This document shows, one piece after another, positions 1-5,576 of a stretch of DNA of 5,576 nt. The stretch spans positions 1 through 5,576 of the forward strand of contig NZ_JAEDAM010000066.1 in assembly GCF_018420025.1 (NCBI RefSeq). The letters are read 5' to 3'. This DNA comes from Candidatus Vampirococcus lugosii. GTDB lineage: Bacteria > Patescibacteriota > Gracilibacteria > Absconditabacterales > Absconditicoccaceae. The position numbers and the translations under genes were made by a program. A model generated the notes under the pieces. That model did not search any database. It saw nothing but the letters and a program-made list of their open reading frames with translations, and was not told where the DNA came from. Positions within the stretch are counted from its first letter, which is position 1, and each line of letters starts with the position of its first letter.

Positions 1-1
1 A

Positions 2-199
2 CCATGGTGTAAAGTTCCTAGACATAGTCTTCCAAGTTGTAAAGAACATAGACAAGAAGCTGTTGTTGATATAGATGTTGGTAATTGAACAATACATAGA
101 TATAATTTTATATGTGTTGAAAAAGACGACTTTAGAACAGGTGGAAAGTTTTTTGAATGGCAGAAAAGAAATTATCGTCCAGAAATAATTAATCAATAA
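2..199 (+). CDS. 3' end of an upstream gene (65 codons visible), product unknown; Cys/His-containing C-terminal segment
   Basis: Frame 2 is open from the window edge to TAA 197-199. It reads PWCKVPRHSLPSCKEHRQEAVVDIDVGNGTIHRYNFICVEKDDFRTGGKFFEWQKRNYRPEIINQ, with one in-frame TGA read as Gly. A hairpin plus T-run follows. I do not recognise the family by eye. Confidence 0.55.
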
Positions 200-238
200 T
201 ATTATCTATAGATAATAAAGAAATTTTGTTTTTATAAA

Positions 239-288
239 ATTGAGAGATTTAGTGATTTAAATTACTTTATTTCTCAATTTTTTGTTTA
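239..288 (+). terminator. Rho-independent terminator of the upstream gene
   Basis: The outer stem ATTGAGAGAT (239-248) pairs with ATTTCTCAAT (269-278), including one G.U pair. The inner stem AGTGAT (251-256) pairs with ATTACT (261-266) around a TTAA loop. TTTTTTGTTT follows immediately (279-288). It lies 40 nt after the TAA at 197-199. Confidence 0.6.
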
Positions 289-452
289 AAAATTATGAAA
301 ATATTCAAAATGTAAAATCTTTTTTAAATTTTCAGATAAATATGAAATACTTTATAATTATAATTCTATTAATAATTCTAATATGTAATATAAACTAGTG
401 TTGTTTGCAGTAGTTGAATATATATTACATAATTGAAAATTTTTCCGAAATA

Positions 453-491
453 GAAATCAACAAAATCACCTACAGAATCAACAAAATTCAC
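453..491. repeat. Two direct copies of AATCAACAAAAT(C/T)CAC at a 21-bp period
   Basis: AATCAACAAAAT occurs exactly at 455-466 and 476-487. The flanks are similar (AGAAATC.../AGAATC..., ...CAC/...TCAC). The repeat lies in non-coding sequence. Confidence 0.6.
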
Positions 492-604
492 TCTTTTCTC
501 TAATTTAGGTGCAGAAGATTAGGATAATTTTCTATTGATTTAATATTTTTGTTATATATAATAATTTTGATTTTATTTTAAATATATAAAAAAATACAAA
601 AATA

Positions 605-866
605 ATGTATACAGATATAAAATCTTTTTCTTTGAAAAAAGGTTTTTTTATTTTAAAAAAATTCTGTTACTCATATTTGATATGGGGCTTTTGCAGATAA
701 TGAAACAGAAAATTATTTTAAAAAACTAAACTCAAGATTCTCTAAATGAATAAATCAATTAAAAAATTATTACAAAAAAACAAACTTTAAATTAGATAAA
801 AAATTTGATTTTGAATTTGAAAATAAAATTGAAAAGAAAAAAATTAAAGTAAAATTAAACTTTTAA
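605..866 (+). pseudogene. Possible decayed or frameshifted small ORF (~87 codons if one A is removed from an A7 run)
   Basis: ATG 605 opens MYTDIKSFSLKKGFFILKK..., which stops at TAA 698-700. The +1 frame is open for 70 codons (657-866, TAA 864-866) but has no ATG/GTG/TTG. That is unexpectedly long for sequence this TAA-prone. The two frames overlap at an A7 run (655-661). No family recognised. Confidence 0.25.
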
Positions 867-1109
867 TTATACCTGTAATATTGTCTAATTTTTATATTTT
901 TTATATTAAAAATATTTAAAAAACAAGAAACATTTTAAATATTTATTTTGATATAGAAAAAGAAGGTTTTATTGAATTTTTGGAAAGTGAGGATTTTATA
1001 AATTATATAAAATAATAAAAAAATCAATTTGCTGATTATAGTGTTTAAAAAGAAGAAATACTTAAAGATTTTATGCAAAAATAATTTCTAATTTTTTGTT
1101 AACAAGTTT

Positions 1110-1159
1110 TTGATTGAAAAAATTTAAATTTTATTTATTATAATTTATAATTTATAATT
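1110..1159 (+). promoter_or_regulatory. Candidate hsdM/operon promoter
   Basis: TTGAAA (1114-1119) is followed by TATTAT (1136-1141, 16-nt spacer) and TATAAT (1139-1144, 19-nt spacer). The hsdM ATG lies 13-33 nt downstream. AT-rich background makes hexamer matches weak evidence. Confidence 0.35.
1139..1159. repeat. Perfect tandem heptamer (TATAATT)x3
   Basis: TATAATT occurs at 1139-1145, 1146-1152 and 1153-1159. That gives three consecutive perfect -10-like hexamers ending 13 nt before the hsdM start. Confidence 0.9.
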
Positions 1160-1171
1160 AAATTTTAAAAA

Positions 1172-2683
1172 ATGACAAAAGAACAACTTTCAAGTGCGGA
1201 GATAAAAAAAGCTTGTGATATACTTAGAAGAGATGATTGAGTATGATCCAAAAATTATATTACTGAAATATCATGGATATTATTTTTAAAACTTTTTGAG
1301 GAAATAGAAAATATCTTTGATGATATATCAGCAAGTAAGATGCAAGATTATCATTTTGTAATAGAAGAAAAATATCATTGGTCATCTTGGGCTCATGATA
1401 AAGAATATAGAAAAAATCCCGAAAAGATGCTTGATTTTGTAAGATGAAAACTTTTCCCTTATTTGAAATTGCTTTCTGGAGATTATGGAACAAAAATTGC
1501 TCAAATATTTAATACTTTGGTGCAACCAAAAATCTTGAGTTGATATAATTTGATAGATGTTGTAGATATTGTAGATAAGATAAATAAAAAAGATTTTGTT
1601 GATTCCCACTTGCTTTCTCATGCTTATGAAGAGATACTTGCCAAGATGTGAAATGAATGATGATGGGCTTGAGAATATTATACTCCAAGGTCAGTAATTA
1701 AATTTTTGATACATACTCTTGATCCTCAAGTTTGACAAAAGATAAAAGATCCATTTACTTGAAGTTGATGATTTTTGGTAGAATCGTTTGAATATCTAAA
1801 ACAAAAATCTAATTGGGATACTTTATCTACAAAAGAACAAAAAAAACTTGCTGATAATAGTTTGTTTTGACAAGAGAAAAAACAAGAATGATATATCTTG
1901 TGAATGATGAACTTGATAACTCATGGAGTGTTAAAACCAAATATAAACCTTGCAAATACTTTTGGTCAAGATCTAAATAATATAACTTGAGAATATGATG
2001 TAATATTGACAAATCCCCCATTTTGAGGGAAAGAAGCATCTCAAGTATATAAACATTATGAATATCCTACATCAGCTACAGAATGACTTGCTCTTCAATA
2101 TATCATGAAAACTTTGAAAAATGGCTGAAAAGCTTGAGTAGTACTTCCAGACGGACAGATACTTTTTGCAACGGGACTTTTTGCAGATATAAGACAGAAA
2201 CTTTTTGAAAAAAATAAGTTAAAATATATCATAAGTTTACCAGCTTGAGTGTTTGCACAGATGTGAACAGGAATCAAGACAGTTTGTATGATATTTGAAA
2301 AATGATGAAATACAAAAAATGTAGTTTATTATAACCTAAATTGAAAATATACTAAGAAAAAATTACTTCCTCTTGAAGATATGGAATCTATACTTGAAGA
2401 TATGAAACAAGTTGATATTTTTGATAAAAATCTTGATGAAAAAGATATAGATGCTTTTAATATCGCTTGAGAAGATACAAATCAAAATTTTGATAGGTGG
2501 GTAGTACCTTTGGAATACTTTGAAAATAATAATTATGACATATCACCAAAAAATCCTTTTGAAAAAAAAGATATAGTTTTGTCAGTAGATGAAAATCTAT
2601 CTTTGATAAATAAAGGAAATACTTGATTTACACAAGAGTTTGAAAATCTTAAAAAACTTTTAAAAGATAATGATTTGGTATAA
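1172..2683 (+). CDS. hsdM: Type I restriction-modification system, DNA methyltransferase subunit HsdM (N6-adenine, gamma class), 503 aa under code 25
   Basis: ATG 1172 to TAA 2681-2683, with 27 in-frame TGA and no TAA/TAG. With TGA=Gly the translation shows several HsdM hallmarks. The N-terminus is HsdM_N-like (CDILRRDDGVGSKNYITEISWILFLKLF). AGEYYTPR is at 1667-1690 and SAM motif I DPFTGSGGF at 1748-1774. LFGQE...MMNLITHG is present, and catalytic motif IV NPPFGG is at 2012-2029. The C-terminal NNYDISPKN is typical of HsdM. Confidence 0.95.
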
Positions 2684-2720
2684 AAAAATACTTGTATTTG
2701 GATGGATTATTTTAATGAAA

Positions 2721-2829
2721 TGTCTTATAAAAAAATAATTATGTCTCATAATAAATGCCTTTATTATAAGTTAAAATAGAATTTTTAATAAAAATAATGT
2801 CCTATAAATACTTGAAAAGTGTCTTATAA
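2721..2829 (+). promoter_or_regulatory. Four direct TGTCYYATAA boxes in two pairs; candidate operator/promoter module upstream of the HTH-Fic gene
   Basis: The boxes are TGTCTTATAA 2721-2730, TGTCTCATAA 2742-2751, TGTCCTATAA 2798-2807 and TGTCTTATAA 2820-2829. Spacing within each pair is 21 and 22 bp, and the pair-to-pair period is 77-78 bp. Each pair is followed by TTATTATA(A)GTT(T)AAAA(A)TA. The full 10-mer is not seen elsewhere in the window. Confidence 0.5.
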
Positions 2830-2867
2830 ATTATATACTTATTATAGTTTAAAAATAAATTAAAAAA

Positions 2868-3917
2868 ATGAGCTTAATAAAAGAAAGAAGAAATAAAATA
2901 TTAGAGTATATCAAAAATCATGAAAAAGTTCAAATTTCTGATTTATCACATTTGATAGAAGATTTTCAAGTAGATAAAAAAACGATACAAAGAGACTTAA
3001 ACAAACTTGTAGAAGAAAAACAAATTATTAAAAAATGAACTTTAAAATCAACTTTTTATGAATTTTCCCATACAAACAAACTTTTTGAAAACATAGATAC
3101 TCAAAAATATTTTGATATTGCTTATCAAGATAGAGATGTTATAGAAAGTTTTAATTTTGATATTTTTGACATTTTAAAAACTGATATTTTTAATCAAAAA
3201 GAAAATGAAAAACTAGAAAATTTACAAAATCAATTTATTAAAAATTTTTCACAATATGATAGTCAAACCTTGATAAATAAAGAGTTTGAAAGAGTAATGA
3301 TAGAATTTTCTTGGAAATCATCTGCTATCGAGTGAAATACTTATTCTTTACTTGCAACAGAAGCACTACTTAAAGAAAATATACCTGATAGTACAAAAAC
3401 TCCAGAAGAAACACAGATGATACTAAATCATAAAGATGCTTTCAATGAGGTTATACAAAACAAAACTGCTTTTTATGATCTAAAATATCAAGATATAGAA
3501 TATATTCATAGTGTTTTGATAAAAAATCTATGAGTAAAAACAAATATAAGAAAATCACCAGTTTGAATAACTTGAACAAAATATAAACCTTTAGATAATG
3601 AATTTCAAATAAAAGAAGCTTTAGAAAAAACAGCTGAACTTATAAATTATAAAGAATCATTTTTTGAAAAATCATTTTTAATTTTAATATTGCTTGCATA
3701 TATACAAGCTTTTGAAGATGGGAACAAAAGAACTTCAAGGATGCTTTCAAATGCAATACTGTTAGCTTATGATAGTATTTCTTTATCTTATAGAGCAGTT
3801 GATATTATAGAGTATAAAAAAGCTATAATACTATTTTATGAACAAAATAATATTTCATTGTTAAAAAAAATATTTATTGAACAGTTTGAAGATTCTGTAA
3901 AAAATTATTTTAATTAA
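2868..3917 (+). CDS. Fic/DOC-fold protein with N-terminal DeoR-type winged-HTH and a non-canonical Fic motif, 349 aa under code 25
   Basis: ATG 2868 to TAA 3915-3917, with 5 in-frame TGA. The N-terminus KILEYIKNHEKVQISDLSHLIEDFQVDKKTIQRDLNKLVEEKQIIKKG resembles a DeoR HTH (TIRRDL-type recognition helix). SSAIEG (3318-3335) matches the Fic inhibitory motif (S/T)xxxE(G/N). IRKSPVGITGTKYKPL matches the conserved Fic core strand region. QAFEDGNKRTSR (3705-3740) aligns to HxFx(D/E)GNGRxxR. The track ORF 3690-3917 is only the tail of this gene. Confidence 0.9.
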
Positions 3918-3933
3918 TATAAAACTTTAAAAA

Positions 3934-4491
3934 ATGGAACAAAATATATGAGATTTGATTAAAAATGTTGAGTGGAGGGAGGTTAGTATATGGAATATAT
4001 TTGAACTTAAAAAAACAAGTTTTTGAAGTAAATTAGAAAAATATATTTCAAATGAAAAACAAAAATGATATATACCATATTTATCAAGTTGATTAGCAAA
4101 TAATCAAATATCTTGATATGTAAAAAAAGAAAAATTGAAAAATGAACAAATTTATAATTGAGGATGTCTATCTTGGACAGCAAATGCTACAGGAATGATT
4201 TTTTATAGAAATGAAGAAGAATTTGCAATAAAATCAGATGCTTGAGTATTGAAATTTAAAGAAGAAATTAGAAATGGTGATAAAGATAAAAAAGAAGATA
4301 AAGAAAGTGAAGAAATTTTATGATTTACATTAAGTGAAATAAAAAAATATTTTAATTACAAATATATTTATTATTCATTGATATGAGAATTTGAAAAAAA
4401 ATGATTTGATTGGGACAATAAAGCAACAAATGAAAAAGTTAAAAAAATAAGTTTTTTAATCCCTTACAAAAAACTGAAAACCTGACATTAA
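3934..4491 (+). CDS. hsdS: Type I R-M specificity subunit HsdS, 5' portion (TRD1), terminated prematurely by a frameshift
   Basis: ATG 3934 lies 16 nt after the Fic stop. There are 185 codons with 10 TGA, ending at TAA 4489-4491. The N-terminal VEWREVSIWNIFELKK and the body (YIPYLSSGLANNQISGYV..., GGCLSWTANATG) fit an HsdS target-recognition domain. The frame breaks exactly where the conserved IPYKNG.PD...QQ.I segment begins. Confidence 0.85.
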
Positions 4492-5395
4492 TGCCCAACA
4501 AAAAATAGCAAATTTTATTGATAATTGTTTTGATAAACTTGATAATGCAGATAAATATTTGCAGTTGATTTTTCAAAGTGTAAATCAAAAAAGATGATGA
4601 TGAGATGTGATTGATAAGAATTTTTTGAATACAAATTTTGAAGATATATTGAAAAAACATGATGAAAAGATAGCAAAACTTGAAAAATTAGAAAAAGATA
4701 AACAAAAAAGAAATTTTAAAGATACAGTGATGAAGTGAAACTTGATTGATAATCTATGGAAAAGTATACTTGAAGGGGTTTTTGATGAAGCATATTTGAA
4801 AGAAAAGTTTAATTGAGTAGAGTGGGAGAAGAATAAAAGCATAGAAAATATTATAGATAATAAAAAAAGAAAAAAATATAAATTTGATGTAATTAAAGAA
4901 AATGAAATTTTAAATTCTTGAAAATATCCAGTTATTTCACAATGAGATGATTATATTAATTGATATTCTACAAATGAAGAAAAATTATTTAAATGAGAAT
5001 TTCCTTTATTAGCTTTTTGAGATCATACATTTAATATTAAATATATTGATTTTGAATTTATACCATCATGAGATTGATTAAAGAATTTGTATTTCATTAA
5101 AAATATAAACTATAAATATGTATATTATTTTATATATATGCAAAAATGAGAAATAGAATGATATCAAAGACATTTTAAAATATTGAAATCTTTAAAAATC
5201 CCAATTCCTTACAAAAACTGATACCCTGACACTGAAACTCAACAAGAAATAGTAGCTATACTTGAAAAAGCATTTATATATTATCAAAGGATGAAAAATA
5301 AAGCTGAAAGCAATCAAAAATATCTACAAAATATGAGAAAATGAATACTTACAAATATATTTGAAACTGCAAATTTACTTTCTAATCAAAAATAA
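4460..5395 (+). CDS. hsdS: HsdS, 3' portion in the +1 frame (central conserved helices, TRD2, C-terminal conserved helix)
   Basis: Frame 2 is open from 4460 (after TAA 4457-4459) to TAA 5393-5395, with 17 TGA. There is no ATG before 4730. It reads ...NGKPDINAQQKIANFIDNCFDKL..., then TRD2 (VEWEKNKSIENII...GKYPVISQGDDYINGYS...LLAFGDHT...), then IPIPYKNGYPDTETQQEIVAILEKAF...RKGILTNIFE. Removing one A from the A6 run at 4468-4473 joins it to 3934-4473 as a single ~486-aa HsdS. Confidence 0.85.
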
Positions 5396-5397
5396 AA

Positions 5398-5576
5398 ATG
5401 TATACAGAAGCTGACACAAAATCAAAACATATAGAGCCAAATCTTAAAAAATCTTGATGGGATGAATCAAACATCGCAAGAGAATATAAGATAACAGCTG
5501 ATAGTATGGTAGTAGTATGAGAAGAATACCACACCAAAAACACTGCCAAATTTGCTGATTATGTTTTGAAGATAAA
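5398..5576 (+). CDS. hsdR: Type I R-M restriction/helicase subunit HsdR, N-terminal fragment (continues beyond window)
   Basis: ATG 5398 lies 2 nt after the hsdS stop. MYTEADTKSKHIEPNLKKSGWDESNIAREYKITADSMVVVGEEYHTKNTAKFADYVLKI matches the HSDR_N pattern (tEAdTr..lIdP.L...GW ... rE..it.g ... aDYvL). It contains 2 in-frame TGA, one giving the conserved GW. Confidence 0.85.

What the first reader, a model, noticed from the sequence alone, without database searches (positions are those of the whole stretch)
1..5576. The window is written in genetic code 25 (UGA = glycine), not the standard code
Under the standard code the supplied track yields only 60-85 aa scraps, mostly antisense. Reading TGA as sense gives a same-strand array of long ORFs (1172-2683, 2868-3917, 3934-5395, 5398 to end), and every complete one ends in TAA. 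The TGA codons fall on invariant glycines. Examples are HsdM motif I D-P-F-T-[TGA]-S-[TGA]-[TGA]-F (1748-1774), motif IV N-P-P-F-[TGA]-G (2012-2029) and A-[TGA]-E-Y-Y-T-P-R (1667-1690). The Fic inhibitory motif reads E-[TGA]-N (3330-3338) and HsdR reads S-[TGA]-W. Trp (code 4) would destroy these motifs. By my hand count TGA is the majority Gly codon: 27 of 37 in hsdM, 27 of 31 in hsdS and 5 of 6 in the Fic gene. This places the sequence in Absconditabacteria (SR1) or Gracilibacteria, or in one of their mobile elements or phages. Any standard-code annotation of it would be wrong.
Basis: partly seen in the sequence, partly recalled or inferred. Interest (0 to 1): 0.75.

Follow-up and report, generated by a model that had tools for sequence, protein, structure and literature searches.

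The report
Known UGA-glycine code, Vampirococcus contig
The window really is written in genetic code 25 (UGA = glycine), but it is a contig of the already published and correctly annotated genome of the predatory bacterium Candidatus Vampirococcus lugosii, so the reading is right and ordinary.

Summary
Under the standard code no ORF exceeds 85 aa. With TGA as sense, a same-strand type I restriction-modification operon appears (hsdM, a Fic-like gene, hsdS, start of hsdR), and every stop is TAA.

Three tests say TGA = Gly, not Trp:
- Pfam N6_Mtase scores 191 bits with Gly, 154 with X and 139 with Trp.
- In 116 distant HsdM homologs, Gly is the majority residue at 19 of 27 TGA columns (Codetta-style score: Gly +52 bits, Trp -114). 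In 120 Fic homologs it is 5 of 5.
- Among four 80%-identical relatives, TGA exchanges with GGN 52 times and with TGG never.

The hsdM product in table 25 is identical to NCBI MBS8122285.1 of Candidatus Vampirococcus lugosii (Absconditabacteria/SR1). Its contig is 5576 bp, the window's length. The 2021 genome paper states UGA = Gly and used table 25.

Corrections:
- hsdS is not one ORF. An extra A in the run 4468-4473 shifts the frame.
- One TGA column (2468-2470) is aromatic in distant homologs.
- Public metagenome gene calls translate these genes with code 4.

tRNA-Gly(UCA) and loss of RF2 could not be checked here. Novelty: already known.

The parts
2..199 (+). 3' end of an upstream ORF (65 codons, one in-frame TGA, TAA stop); function unknown
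   Evidence: Open in code 25 only. No Pfam or NCBIfam match.
200..1171 (.). AT-rich (15% GC) stretch with no credible ORF upstream of hsdM
   Evidence: No open frame of 70 aa or more in code 25, only low-complexity frames. No Rfam match at E<=1, no tRNA, only low-complexity repeats.
1172..2683 (+). hsdM, type I R-M methyltransferase subunit, 503 aa, 27 in-frame TGA (Gly) codons, TAA stop
   Evidence: Pfam HsdM_N + N6_Mtase, 191 bits with Gly. PDB 5ybb_A at E=4e-78 with an X-masked query. Identical to NCBI MBS8122285.1 of Ca. Vampirococcus lugosii.
2468..2470 (+). The one TGA codon (HsdM residue 433) lying on a column that is aromatic (W79/Y11/F6) in distant homologs
   Evidence: Ungapped block anchored by the invariant Trp 443. 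TGA in all four relatives.
2868..3917 (+). Fic/Doc-like gene, 349 aa, N-terminal DeoR-type HTH, 5 TGA (Gly) codons. The inhibitory-helix motif SSAIE-G-N is intact. The core motif is IQAFEDGNKRTSR, with Gln in place of the catalytic His
   Evidence: Pfam HTH_DeoR + Fic. Alignment to FICD TVAIEGNT / HPFIDGNGRTSR. Motif IQxFEDGNKRT[AS]R invariant in 120 homologs, and all 5 TGA columns Gly-majority.
3934..4491 (+). hsdS 5' segment (first target-recognition domain), running into a premature TAA after the frameshift
   Evidence: ORF 185 aa. The N-terminus matches the hsdS genes of L004 and L005. The same truncated call is made in L001.
4468..4473 (+). A6 run holding the +1-nt insertion that breaks hsdS (A5 in the intact relative L005)
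   Evidence: DNA alignment of window and L005. L001 is identical over this stretch.
4472..5395 (+). hsdS 3' segment in the shifted frame: central conserved region, second target-recognition domain, C-terminal conserved region, TAA stop
   Evidence: The repaired X-masked protein matches EcoR124 HsdS 7bst_A at E=4e-7. The conserved regions match L002's Methylase_S-positive HsdS. No Pfam or NCBIfam hit on its own.
5398..5576 (+). 5' end of hsdR (59 codons, 2 TGA), running off the contig
   Evidence: NCBIfam EcoAI/FtnUII-family R subunit, E=6e-11 over residues 3-58. Near-identical to the N-terminus of L002 hsdR.

Best explanation
The window is a 5576-bp contig of the draft genome of Candidatus Vampirococcus lugosii. 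This organism is an epibiotic predatory bacterium of the Absconditabacteria (SR1) and reads UGA as glycine (NCBI translation table 25). UAA, and presumably UAG, remain stops.

Read this way, the window encodes one of that genome's type I restriction-modification loci: hsdM, a conserved His-less Fic/Doc-like gene, a frameshifted hsdS, and the start of hsdR. At 22% GC (GC3 13%), UGA has become the main glycine codon, about 80% of Gly codons here. This is expected because it is the only AT-rich way to write Gly.

Shown here:
- UGA is sense.
- It stands for Gly in the encoded proteins.
- The source organism is Ca. V. lugosii.

Inferred from the literature on the lineage, not tested here:
- Decoding uses a dedicated tRNA-Gly with anticodon UCA.
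- Release factor 2 has been lost.
For: ORFs and stops:
- ORFs are restored only by TGA-sense: 504 codons against at most 174 in shuffles.
- There are 0 TAA or TAG but 61 TGA in frame.

Gly, not Trp:
- Pfam N6_Mtase scores 191.2 bits with Gly, 153.6 with X and 139.1 with Trp.
- Solved HsdM structures show Gly at the X positions of motifs I and IV and of AGEYYTPR.
- In 116 distant HsdM homologs, Gly is the majority at 19 of 27 TGA columns, with 7 columns at 116/116.
- The summed log-odds are Gly +51.6 bits, Ala -69.0 and Trp -114.2. Controls recover G for GGN columns and W for TGG columns.
- In the Fic family all 5 TGA columns are Gly-majority, and FICD has Gly at the E-G-N position.
- In the hsdM genes of four 80%-identical relatives, TGA pairs with GGN 52 times and with TGG 0 times.
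- Composition is normal only under code 25.

Identity:
- The table-25 translation equals NCBI MBS8122285.1 / WP_213349713.1 of Ca. Vampirococcus lugosii, on a 5576-bp contig.
- The taxonomy is Candidatus Absconditibacteriota.
- The genome paper states UGA = Gly and Prodigal table 25 (PMC8080830).

Lineage background:
- UGA = Gly was validated by proteomics (PMC4032931).
- tRNA-Gly(UCA) is described in SR1 genomes (PMC3812714).
- prfB is absent in Gracilibacteria (PMC6851277).
Against: - One TGA column of 27 in HsdM (nt 2468-2470) is Trp/Tyr/Phe in distant homologs, and seven others are not Gly-conserved.
- No tRNA gene lies in the window or in the relatives' contigs, and the parent genome could not be fetched. 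The tRNA-Gly(UCA) and RF2 hallmarks are therefore untested for this organism.
- Contig identity rests on an exact 503-aa match plus equal contig length. It is not a nucleotide comparison, because the look-up found no record.
- The 49-mer from hsdM was absent from the GTDB species genomes.
Confidence: 0.97

Rival explanations
1. Genetic code 4: UGA is read as tryptophan, as in Mycoplasma, Spiroplasma and several insect endosymbionts. This is also how Logan, JGI and ENA gene calls translate these genes.
For: Code 4 restores the same ORFs. The public calls P0001-P0004 and P0244 use it. One HsdM TGA column is Trp-majority in distant homologs.
Against: - Trp scores below an unknown residue against Pfam (139 vs 154 bits).
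- The log-odds over 27 columns is -114 bits for Trp against +52 for Gly.
- It would destroy the invariant Gly of motifs I and IV and of the Fic E-G-N motif.
- There are no TGA/TGG exchanges among relatives, against 52 TGA/GGN exchanges.
- It would give 5.4% Trp and 1.1% Gly.
Confidence: 0.01
2. The standard code applies and the window is a decayed, pseudogenised or error-ridden locus. A variant of this idea is that the TGAs are selenocysteine or read-through sites.
For: Only short ORFs appear under table 11. hsdS does carry one genuine frameshift.
Against: - There are 61 in-frame TGA but no in-frame TAA or TAG in 1394 codons of a 22% GC sequence.
- The TGA positions are conserved across four relatives at 80% nucleotide identity and coincide with functionally invariant Gly residues.
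- The density of 1 in 23 codons is incompatible with selenocysteine.
Confidence: 0.005
3. UGA is read ambiguously, mainly as Gly with a biologically relevant share of Trp from near-cognate tRNA-Trp. In that case table 25 is only an approximation.
For: - TGA sits at an aromatic column (W79/Y11/F6 of 116) in all four relatives, in an ungapped, well-anchored block.
- Hanke et al. detected 1-3 UGA-as-Trp peptides against 40-97 UGA-as-Gly peptides (PMC4032931).
- Shulgina & Eddy note the potential UGA/UGG ambiguity through U34 wobble (PMC8629427).
Against: - It is a single column.
- TGG to TGA is one AT-ward transition, so a tolerated W-to-G replacement inherited by close relatives explains it.
- That column also accepts Q, L and C in other homologs.
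- There is no TGA/TGG interchange among relatives.
Confidence: 0.03
4. The contig is not chromosomal. It would be part of a code-25 mobile element or prophage of an Absconditabacterium that was binned with the genome.
For: - R-M loci are often mobile.
- The contig is short, with a 970-nt ORF-free AT-rich flank.
- The gene slot between hsdM and hsdS holds different Fic genes in different relatives, and hsdS domains are shuffled.
- Code-25 phages and prophages exist (PMC10746230).
Against: - There are no phage, integrase or transposase genes in the window.
- No relative of hsdM was found in the viral contig collection.
- The 69%-identical hsdM in L002 and L003 lies next to the chromosomal genes gatC and recF.
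- This rival does not change the code assignment.
Confidence: 0.1

Closest known systems
[quoted passage not shown] 2013, Rinke et al. 2013, Hanke et al. 2014)
   Same: UGA is a sense codon at Gly positions. UAA is the stop. The genome has very low GC. The source organism belongs to Absconditabacteria (SR1). GenBank already translates this contig with table 25.
   Different: Nothing in the window departs from it. UGA makes up about 80% of Gly codons here; I found no published figure for comparison. Absconditabacteria are also proposed to read CGA and CGG as Trp (PMC8629427). The window has no such codons, so this cannot be seen here.
Translation table 4 (UGA = Trp; Mycoplasmatales, Entomoplasmatales, some insect endosymbionts)
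   Same: UGA is sense, the genome is AT-rich, and the ORFs are identical. Prodigal-type pipelines pick it automatically, as in the Logan, JGI and ENA calls.
   Different: The amino acid is Gly, not Trp.
Type I restriction-modification systems (HsdM/HsdS/HsdR). The nearest solved HsdM is 5ybb_A. The HsdR start resembles the EcoAI/FtnUII (type IB) family. The HsdS resembles EcoR124
   Same: - Gene order is hsdM-hsdS-hsdR on one strand.
- HsdM has HsdM_N + N6_Mtase with motif I (DPFTGSGGF) and motif IV (NPPF).
- HsdS has two variable target-recognition domains separated by conserved regions.
   Different: - hsdS is broken by a +1-nt frameshift.
- A Fic/Doc-like gene is inserted between hsdM and hsdS.
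- hsdS is too divergent for Pfam Methylase_S.
- Only 59 codons of hsdR lie in the window.
Fic/Doc family (PF02661): FICD/HYPE-type class II Fic AMPylases and the Doc kinase
   Same: Fic fold signature by Pfam at E=3e-13. The inhibitory-helix motif [ST]xxxE[GN] is present as SSAIEG, N-terminal to the core. The 'NKR' in the core motif is as in Doc (HxFx[DN][AG]NKR), with a weak DOC_P1 hit.
   Different: The catalytic His of HxFx(D/E)GNGRxxR is Gln, and the second Gly is Lys. The motif QxFEDGNKRT[AS]R is invariant in 120 homologs. The protein also has an N-terminal DeoR-type HTH. Its biochemical activity is unknown.

Membership tests
Genetic code 25 (UGA = Gly) | UGA occurs in frame inside conserved protein-coding genes | tested here: met
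   61 in-frame TGA in 1394 codons. ORFs of 503, 349 and 185+308 aa appear only with TGA as sense.
Genetic code 25 (UGA = Gly) | UGA positions correspond to glycine in homologs from standard-code organisms | tested here: met
   HsdM: Gly is the majority at 19 of 27 columns, with log-odds Gly +51.6 against Trp -114.2 bits. Fic: 5 of 5 columns. PDB alignments agree. One aromatic column is the exception.
Genetic code 25 (UGA = Gly) | UGA and GGN behave as synonymous codons between close relatives | tested here: met
   52 TGA/GGN and 0 TGA/TGG pairings across the four hsdM genes.
Genetic code 25 (UGA = Gly) | UAA and UAG remain stop codons | tested here: met
   All 5 terminations in the window are TAA, and none of the in-frame stops counted in the relatives' genes is TAG. 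TAG is never in frame, although it is common out of frame. UAG was never observed as an actual terminator, so its stop role is inferred from its absence.
Genetic code 25 (UGA = Gly) | Genome encodes a tRNA-Gly with anticodon UCA | not testable with these tools
   No tRNA in the window or in L001-L003. The parent genome could not be fetched. Reported for SR1 genomes in PMC3812714. The Vampirococcus paper and its supplements do not list it.
Genetic code 25 (UGA = Gly) | Release factor 2 (prfB) absent | not testable with these tools
Absence is reported for Gracilibacteria genomes (PMC6851277). The Vampirococcus supplements do not mention it.
Genetic code 25 (UGA = Gly) | Organism belongs to Absconditabacteria (SR1) or Gracilibacteria (BD1-5) | tested here: met
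   Exact protein match to Ca. Vampirococcus lugosii on a 5576-bp contig. Phylum Candidatus Absconditibacteriota. RecF next to a relative's hsdM has only Gracilibacteria-labelled named homologs.
Genetic code 4 (UGA = Trp) | UGA positions correspond to tryptophan in homologs | tested here: not met
   Trp makes up 79 of 3127 cells, all in one column. The Trp version scores 52 bits below the Gly version against Pfam.
Type I restriction-modification system | HsdM with HsdM_N and N6_Mtase domains and catalytic motifs I and IV | tested here: met
   Pfam PF12161 + PF02384. DPFTGSGGF and NPPFGG are present. 5ybb_A matches at E=4e-78.
Type I restriction-modification system | Intact HsdS with two target-recognition domains and two conserved regions | tested here: not met
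   The architecture is present and matches EcoR124 HsdS and the relatives. The reading frame is broken at 4468-4473, which gives a 185-aa product. There is no Pfam Methylase_S hit.
Type I restriction-modification system | HsdR with nuclease and SF2 helicase domains | tested here: inconclusive
   Only 59 N-terminal codons lie in the window. They match the EcoAI-family R model at E=6e-11 and the full-length L002 HsdR.
Fic AMPylases (HxFx(D/E)GNGRxxR) | Catalytic His and the GNGR anion-binding loop in the core motif | tested here: not met
   The core reads IQAFEDGNKRTSR, with His replaced by Gln and the second Gly by Lys. The Pfam Fic domain and the inhibitory motif SSAIEG are nevertheless present.

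The most novel reading that the evidence does not exclude
Table 25 may not be the whole code of this lineage. CGG (and CGA) may be read as Trp, as Shulgina & Eddy proposed for Absconditabacteria.
- The window, from an Absconditabacterium, contains no CGA or CGG in 1465 codons.
- In its relatives, 2 of the 3 CGG codons fall on Trp or aromatic columns. L005 hsdM has CGG where 116 of 116 homologs have Trp. L002 hsdR has CGG where the two closest solved structures have Tyr.
- A single TGA at an aromatic column (2468-2470) hints at some UGA/Trp ambiguity.

If both were true, even table-25 annotations of these genomes would be slightly wrong.
Probability: 0.35. Interest if true: 0.35.

Novelty: already known. 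Interest (0 to 1): 0.1.

Why it matters
For this window the main value is practical. It shows that raw-sequence reading can correctly diagnose a recoded genome. It also shows that large public protein collections still carry these genes in code 4. The Logan copy of this very hsdM has Trp at all 27 glycines, and roughly a quarter of the closest Fic homologs show 'W' at invariant Gly positions. This corrupts catalytic motifs in databases used for homology search and model training.

Biologically nothing new is established. UGA = Gly in Absconditabacteria has been known since 2013, and this genome was published with that code in 2021.

Tried and rejected
Searches for the parent contig:
- An exact 49-mer from hsdM found nothing in the GTDB species genomes, the viral contigs or the JGI metagenome contigs.
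- A code-25-diagnostic pattern (T-N-P-P-F-TGA-x-K-E) in GTDB gave 11 hits. All were in unrelated standard-code taxa with 35-62% GC, and none had tblastn similarity to HsdM. They are chance matches, so the scan gave no lineage information.
- The search for related loci in viral contigs found no relative of hsdM.
- A pattern around the hsdS A-run found nothing in the metagenome contigs, so phase variation could not be assessed.

- The look-up of encoding contigs and the search of protein representatives refuse non-table-11 translations.
- The NCBI protein P0242 is not on record in the contig index.

Negative scans:
- Rfam at E<=1 found nothing in the window.
- ARAGORN found no tRNA in the window or in L001-L003.

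Lineage detour:
- RecF beside a relative's hsdM pointed to 'Candidatus Gracilibacteria' labels.
- The exact match to Ca. Vampirococcus lugosii (Absconditabacteria) supersedes this for the window. The two labels are not in conflict for the relatives; from my own knowledge of GTDB, its class Gracilibacteria includes the Absconditabacteria order.

Readings considered and rejected:
- Code 4, pseudogene decay and selenocysteine (see the rival explanations).
- That column 433 is an alignment artefact. The block is ungapped and anchored.
- That the Fic gene is a lone degenerate copy. The Gln-containing motif is invariant in 120 homologs.

Full report

Yes. Under the bacterial standard code the window has 18 ORFs of at least 40 aa, none longer than 85 aa, and 13 are antisense.

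If TGA alone is made sense, four long same-strand frames open:
- 1172-2683 (503 aa)
- 2868-3917 (349 aa)
- 3934-4491 plus a shifted continuation to 5395
- 5398 to the end of the window

The longest open frame is 504 codons, against a maximum of 174 in 300 first-order Markov shuffles. Making TAG or TAA sense gives nothing comparable.

Within the coding frames there are 0 TAA, 0 TAG and 61 TGA in 1394 codons, while the two off-frames carry 53-74 TAA. All five terminations are TAA.

**2. Which amino acid?**

I masked every TGA as X so that no test assumed the answer.

Profiles and structures:
- Against Pfam N6_Mtase, HsdM scores 191.2 bits with Gly, 153.6 with X and 139.1 with Trp. Trp is worse than no information.
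- Solved HsdM structures from standard-code organisms show Gly at the X positions of DPACGTGGF, NPPFGG and AGEFYTPR.

Homolog columns:
- Gly is the majority residue at 19 of the 27 TGA columns in 116 distant HsdM homologs.
- It is invariant (116/116) at 7 of them.
- Trp is the majority at one column.
- A Codetta-style summed log-odds gives Gly +51.6 bits, Ala -69.0 and Trp -114.2.
- The same score recovers G for the window's GGN columns and W for its TGG columns.
- A second family agrees. All five TGA columns of the Fic-like protein are Gly-majority in 120 homologs. Human FICD has Gly exactly at the E-G-N position.

Close relatives:
- Four relatives with about 80% nucleotide identity in hsdM were fetched (L002/L003, L004, L005).
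- Across them TGA aligns with GGN 52 times and with TGG 0 times.
- TGG aligns with TGG 68 times and with other, non-TGA, non-GGN codons 7 times.

Composition is normal only under code 25 (5.5% Gly, 1.0% Trp). Code 4 would give 1.1% Gly and 5.4% Trp.

**3. What the window is**

- The cluster of the best database hit contains NCBI MBS8122285.1 / WP_213349713.1, 'N-6 DNA methylase [Candidatus Vampirococcus lugosii]'. It lies on a contig of 5576 bp, the window's length.
- That protein is identical to the window's hsdM in table 25. The Logan copy is identical to it in table 4.
- NCBI taxonomy places the species in Candidatus Absconditibacteriota.
- Moreira et al. 2021 (PMC8080830) state that UGA is an additional Gly codon in this genome. 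They predicted CDSs with Prodigal table 25. They report three type I R-M systems among the genome's defences.

It is also already published and already applied in GenBank.

**4. Anatomy of the locus**

- **hsdM** has HsdM_N + N6_Mtase.
- **The last 59 codons** match the EcoAI-family HsdR model and the full-length HsdR of L002.
- **hsdS** has no Pfam or NCBIfam hit. It is still identified three ways:
  - a match to the EcoR124 specificity subunit at E=4e-7;
  - conserved regions shared with L002's Methylase_S-positive HsdS;
  - N-termini shared with the hsdS genes of L004 and L005.
- **The hsdS frame break:**
  - The run 4468-4473 is A6, while the intact relative L005 has A5.
  - The frame therefore breaks just at the start of the central conserved region and ends at a TAA at 4489-4491.
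  - The Logan contig L001 (SRR13241709) shows the same A6. It matches window 470-4553 with 2 mismatches (2152, 2176) and no gaps.
  - That run may belong to the same sequencing project, so this is not certainly independent confirmation.
- **The gene between hsdM and hsdS** is a DeoR-HTH + Fic protein.
  - Its core motif is IQAFEDGNKRTSR, with Gln in place of the catalytic His and a Doc-like NKR.
  - The motif is invariant in 120 homologs. Standard-code Patescibacteria members are still 61-66% identical. It is therefore a conserved subfamily, not a decayed copy.
  - L004 has a different, canonical Fic (HPFYDGNGRTGR) in the same slot.

**5. Mechanism**

Shown here: UGA is sense and encodes Gly.

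Inferred from the lineage literature and not testable here:
- Decoding by a dedicated tRNA-Gly(UCA) (PMC3812714; PMC8629427).
- Loss of RF2 (PMC6851277).

No tRNA lies in the window or in the relatives' contigs. The paper's supplements are silent on both points.

UGA makes up about 80% of Gly codons in the window and its relatives. This fits the idea that UGA = Gly lowers GC content (PMC3812714). The window has 22% GC and GC3 of 13%.

**6. Exceptions and side leads**

- HsdM residue 433 (2468-2470) is TGA in all four relatives. It is W79/Y11/F6 in distant homologs, in an ungapped, well-anchored block. The simplest reading is an inherited TGG-to-TGA change that made a tolerated W-to-G replacement. 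Low-level Trp decoding cannot be excluded.
- Shulgina & Eddy propose CGA and CGG = Trp in Absconditabacteria.
  - The window has no such codons.
  - In the relatives, L005's single hsdM CGG lies on a column that is Trp in 116 of 116 homologs.
  - L002's hsdR CGG aligns to Tyr in 3h1t and 7clg.

**7. Verdict**

Novelty is 'already known' and interest is low. The practical lesson is that public metagenome-derived protein sets still translate these genes with code 4.

Noticed in passing
window 4468-4473 (hsdS, 3934-5395): hsdS is split by a +1-nt insertion in an A run (A6, against A5 in the intact relative L005). This gives a 185-aa product that ends at the start of the central conserved region. 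The same A6 is in the Logan contig L001. It could be a pseudogene, a phase-variable switch or a +1 slippage site (AAA-AAA-C). Without HsdS, neither methylation nor restriction by this system should work.
   Followed up: partly
window 2868-3917 (core motif at about 3702-3740): The Fic-like gene between hsdM and hsdS has Gln in place of the catalytic His and a Doc-like NKR (IQAFEDGNKRTSR). It also has an intact inhibitory motif SSAIEG and an N-terminal DeoR HTH. The Gln motif is invariant in 120 homologs, including standard-code Patescibacteria at 61-66% identity. It is thus a conserved, uncharacterised Fic/Doc subfamily.
   Followed up: partly
window 2468-2470 (HsdM residue 433): This is the only TGA of 27 in hsdM on a column that is aromatic (W79/Y11/F6/Q6) in 116 distant homologs. 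All four code-25 relatives have TGA there. It is either an inherited W-to-G replacement or a hint of some Trp reading of UGA.
   Followed up: partly
L005 816-818 (hsdM) and L002 7903-7905 (hsdR): CGG codons in relatives fall on Trp or aromatic columns. L005 has CGG where the window, L002 and L004 have TGG and 116 of 116 homologs have Trp. L002's hsdR CGG aligns to Tyr in the PDB chains 3h1t and 7clg. This fits the proposed CGG = Trp reassignment in Absconditabacteria and some Gracilibacteria. The window itself has 0 CGA and 0 CGG in 1465 codons.
   Followed up: partly
window 200-1171: About 970 nt at 15% GC upstream of hsdM has no credible ORF in code 25, no Rfam hit, no tRNA and only low-complexity repeats. 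This is an unusually long non-coding stretch for a reduced CPR genome.
   Followed up: partly
window 2-199: The 3' end of an unidentified ORF (65 codons, Cys/His-rich start 'PWCKVPRHSLPSCKEH', one TGA, TAA stop) has no Pfam or NCBIfam match.
   Followed up: partly
L004 3016-3246 versus window about 4900-5000: hsdS target-recognition domains are shuffled between relatives. The first domain of L004 ('TGKYPVISQGDDFINGYYSDDKKLFNGELP') matches the second domain of the window ('SGKYPVISQGDDYINGYSTNEEKLFKGEFP').
   Followed up: no
Public protein collection: P0001-P0004, P0244 and about 30 of 120 Fic homologs: Logan, JGI and ENA gene calls translate code-25 genes with code 4. This produces 'W' at invariant glycines, for example IEWNT and FEDWNKR. 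P0001 equals the window's hsdM in table 4. The result is a systematic annotation error in a large public resource.
   Followed up: partly
P0243 (WP_275052402.1, 123 aa): An NCBI nr entry holds only the first 123 residues of this HsdM, with Gly at the three earlier TGA sites. It ends exactly before the TGA at codon 124. This may be a partial record or an inconsistent re-annotation.
   Followed up: no
L002 9681-10881: The relative's R-M locus is followed by a gene pair that I read, by eye only, as an AbiEi/AbiEii-like toxin-antitoxin pair (no family search was run). The Vampirococcus paper lists this kind of system among its defences.
   Followed up: no
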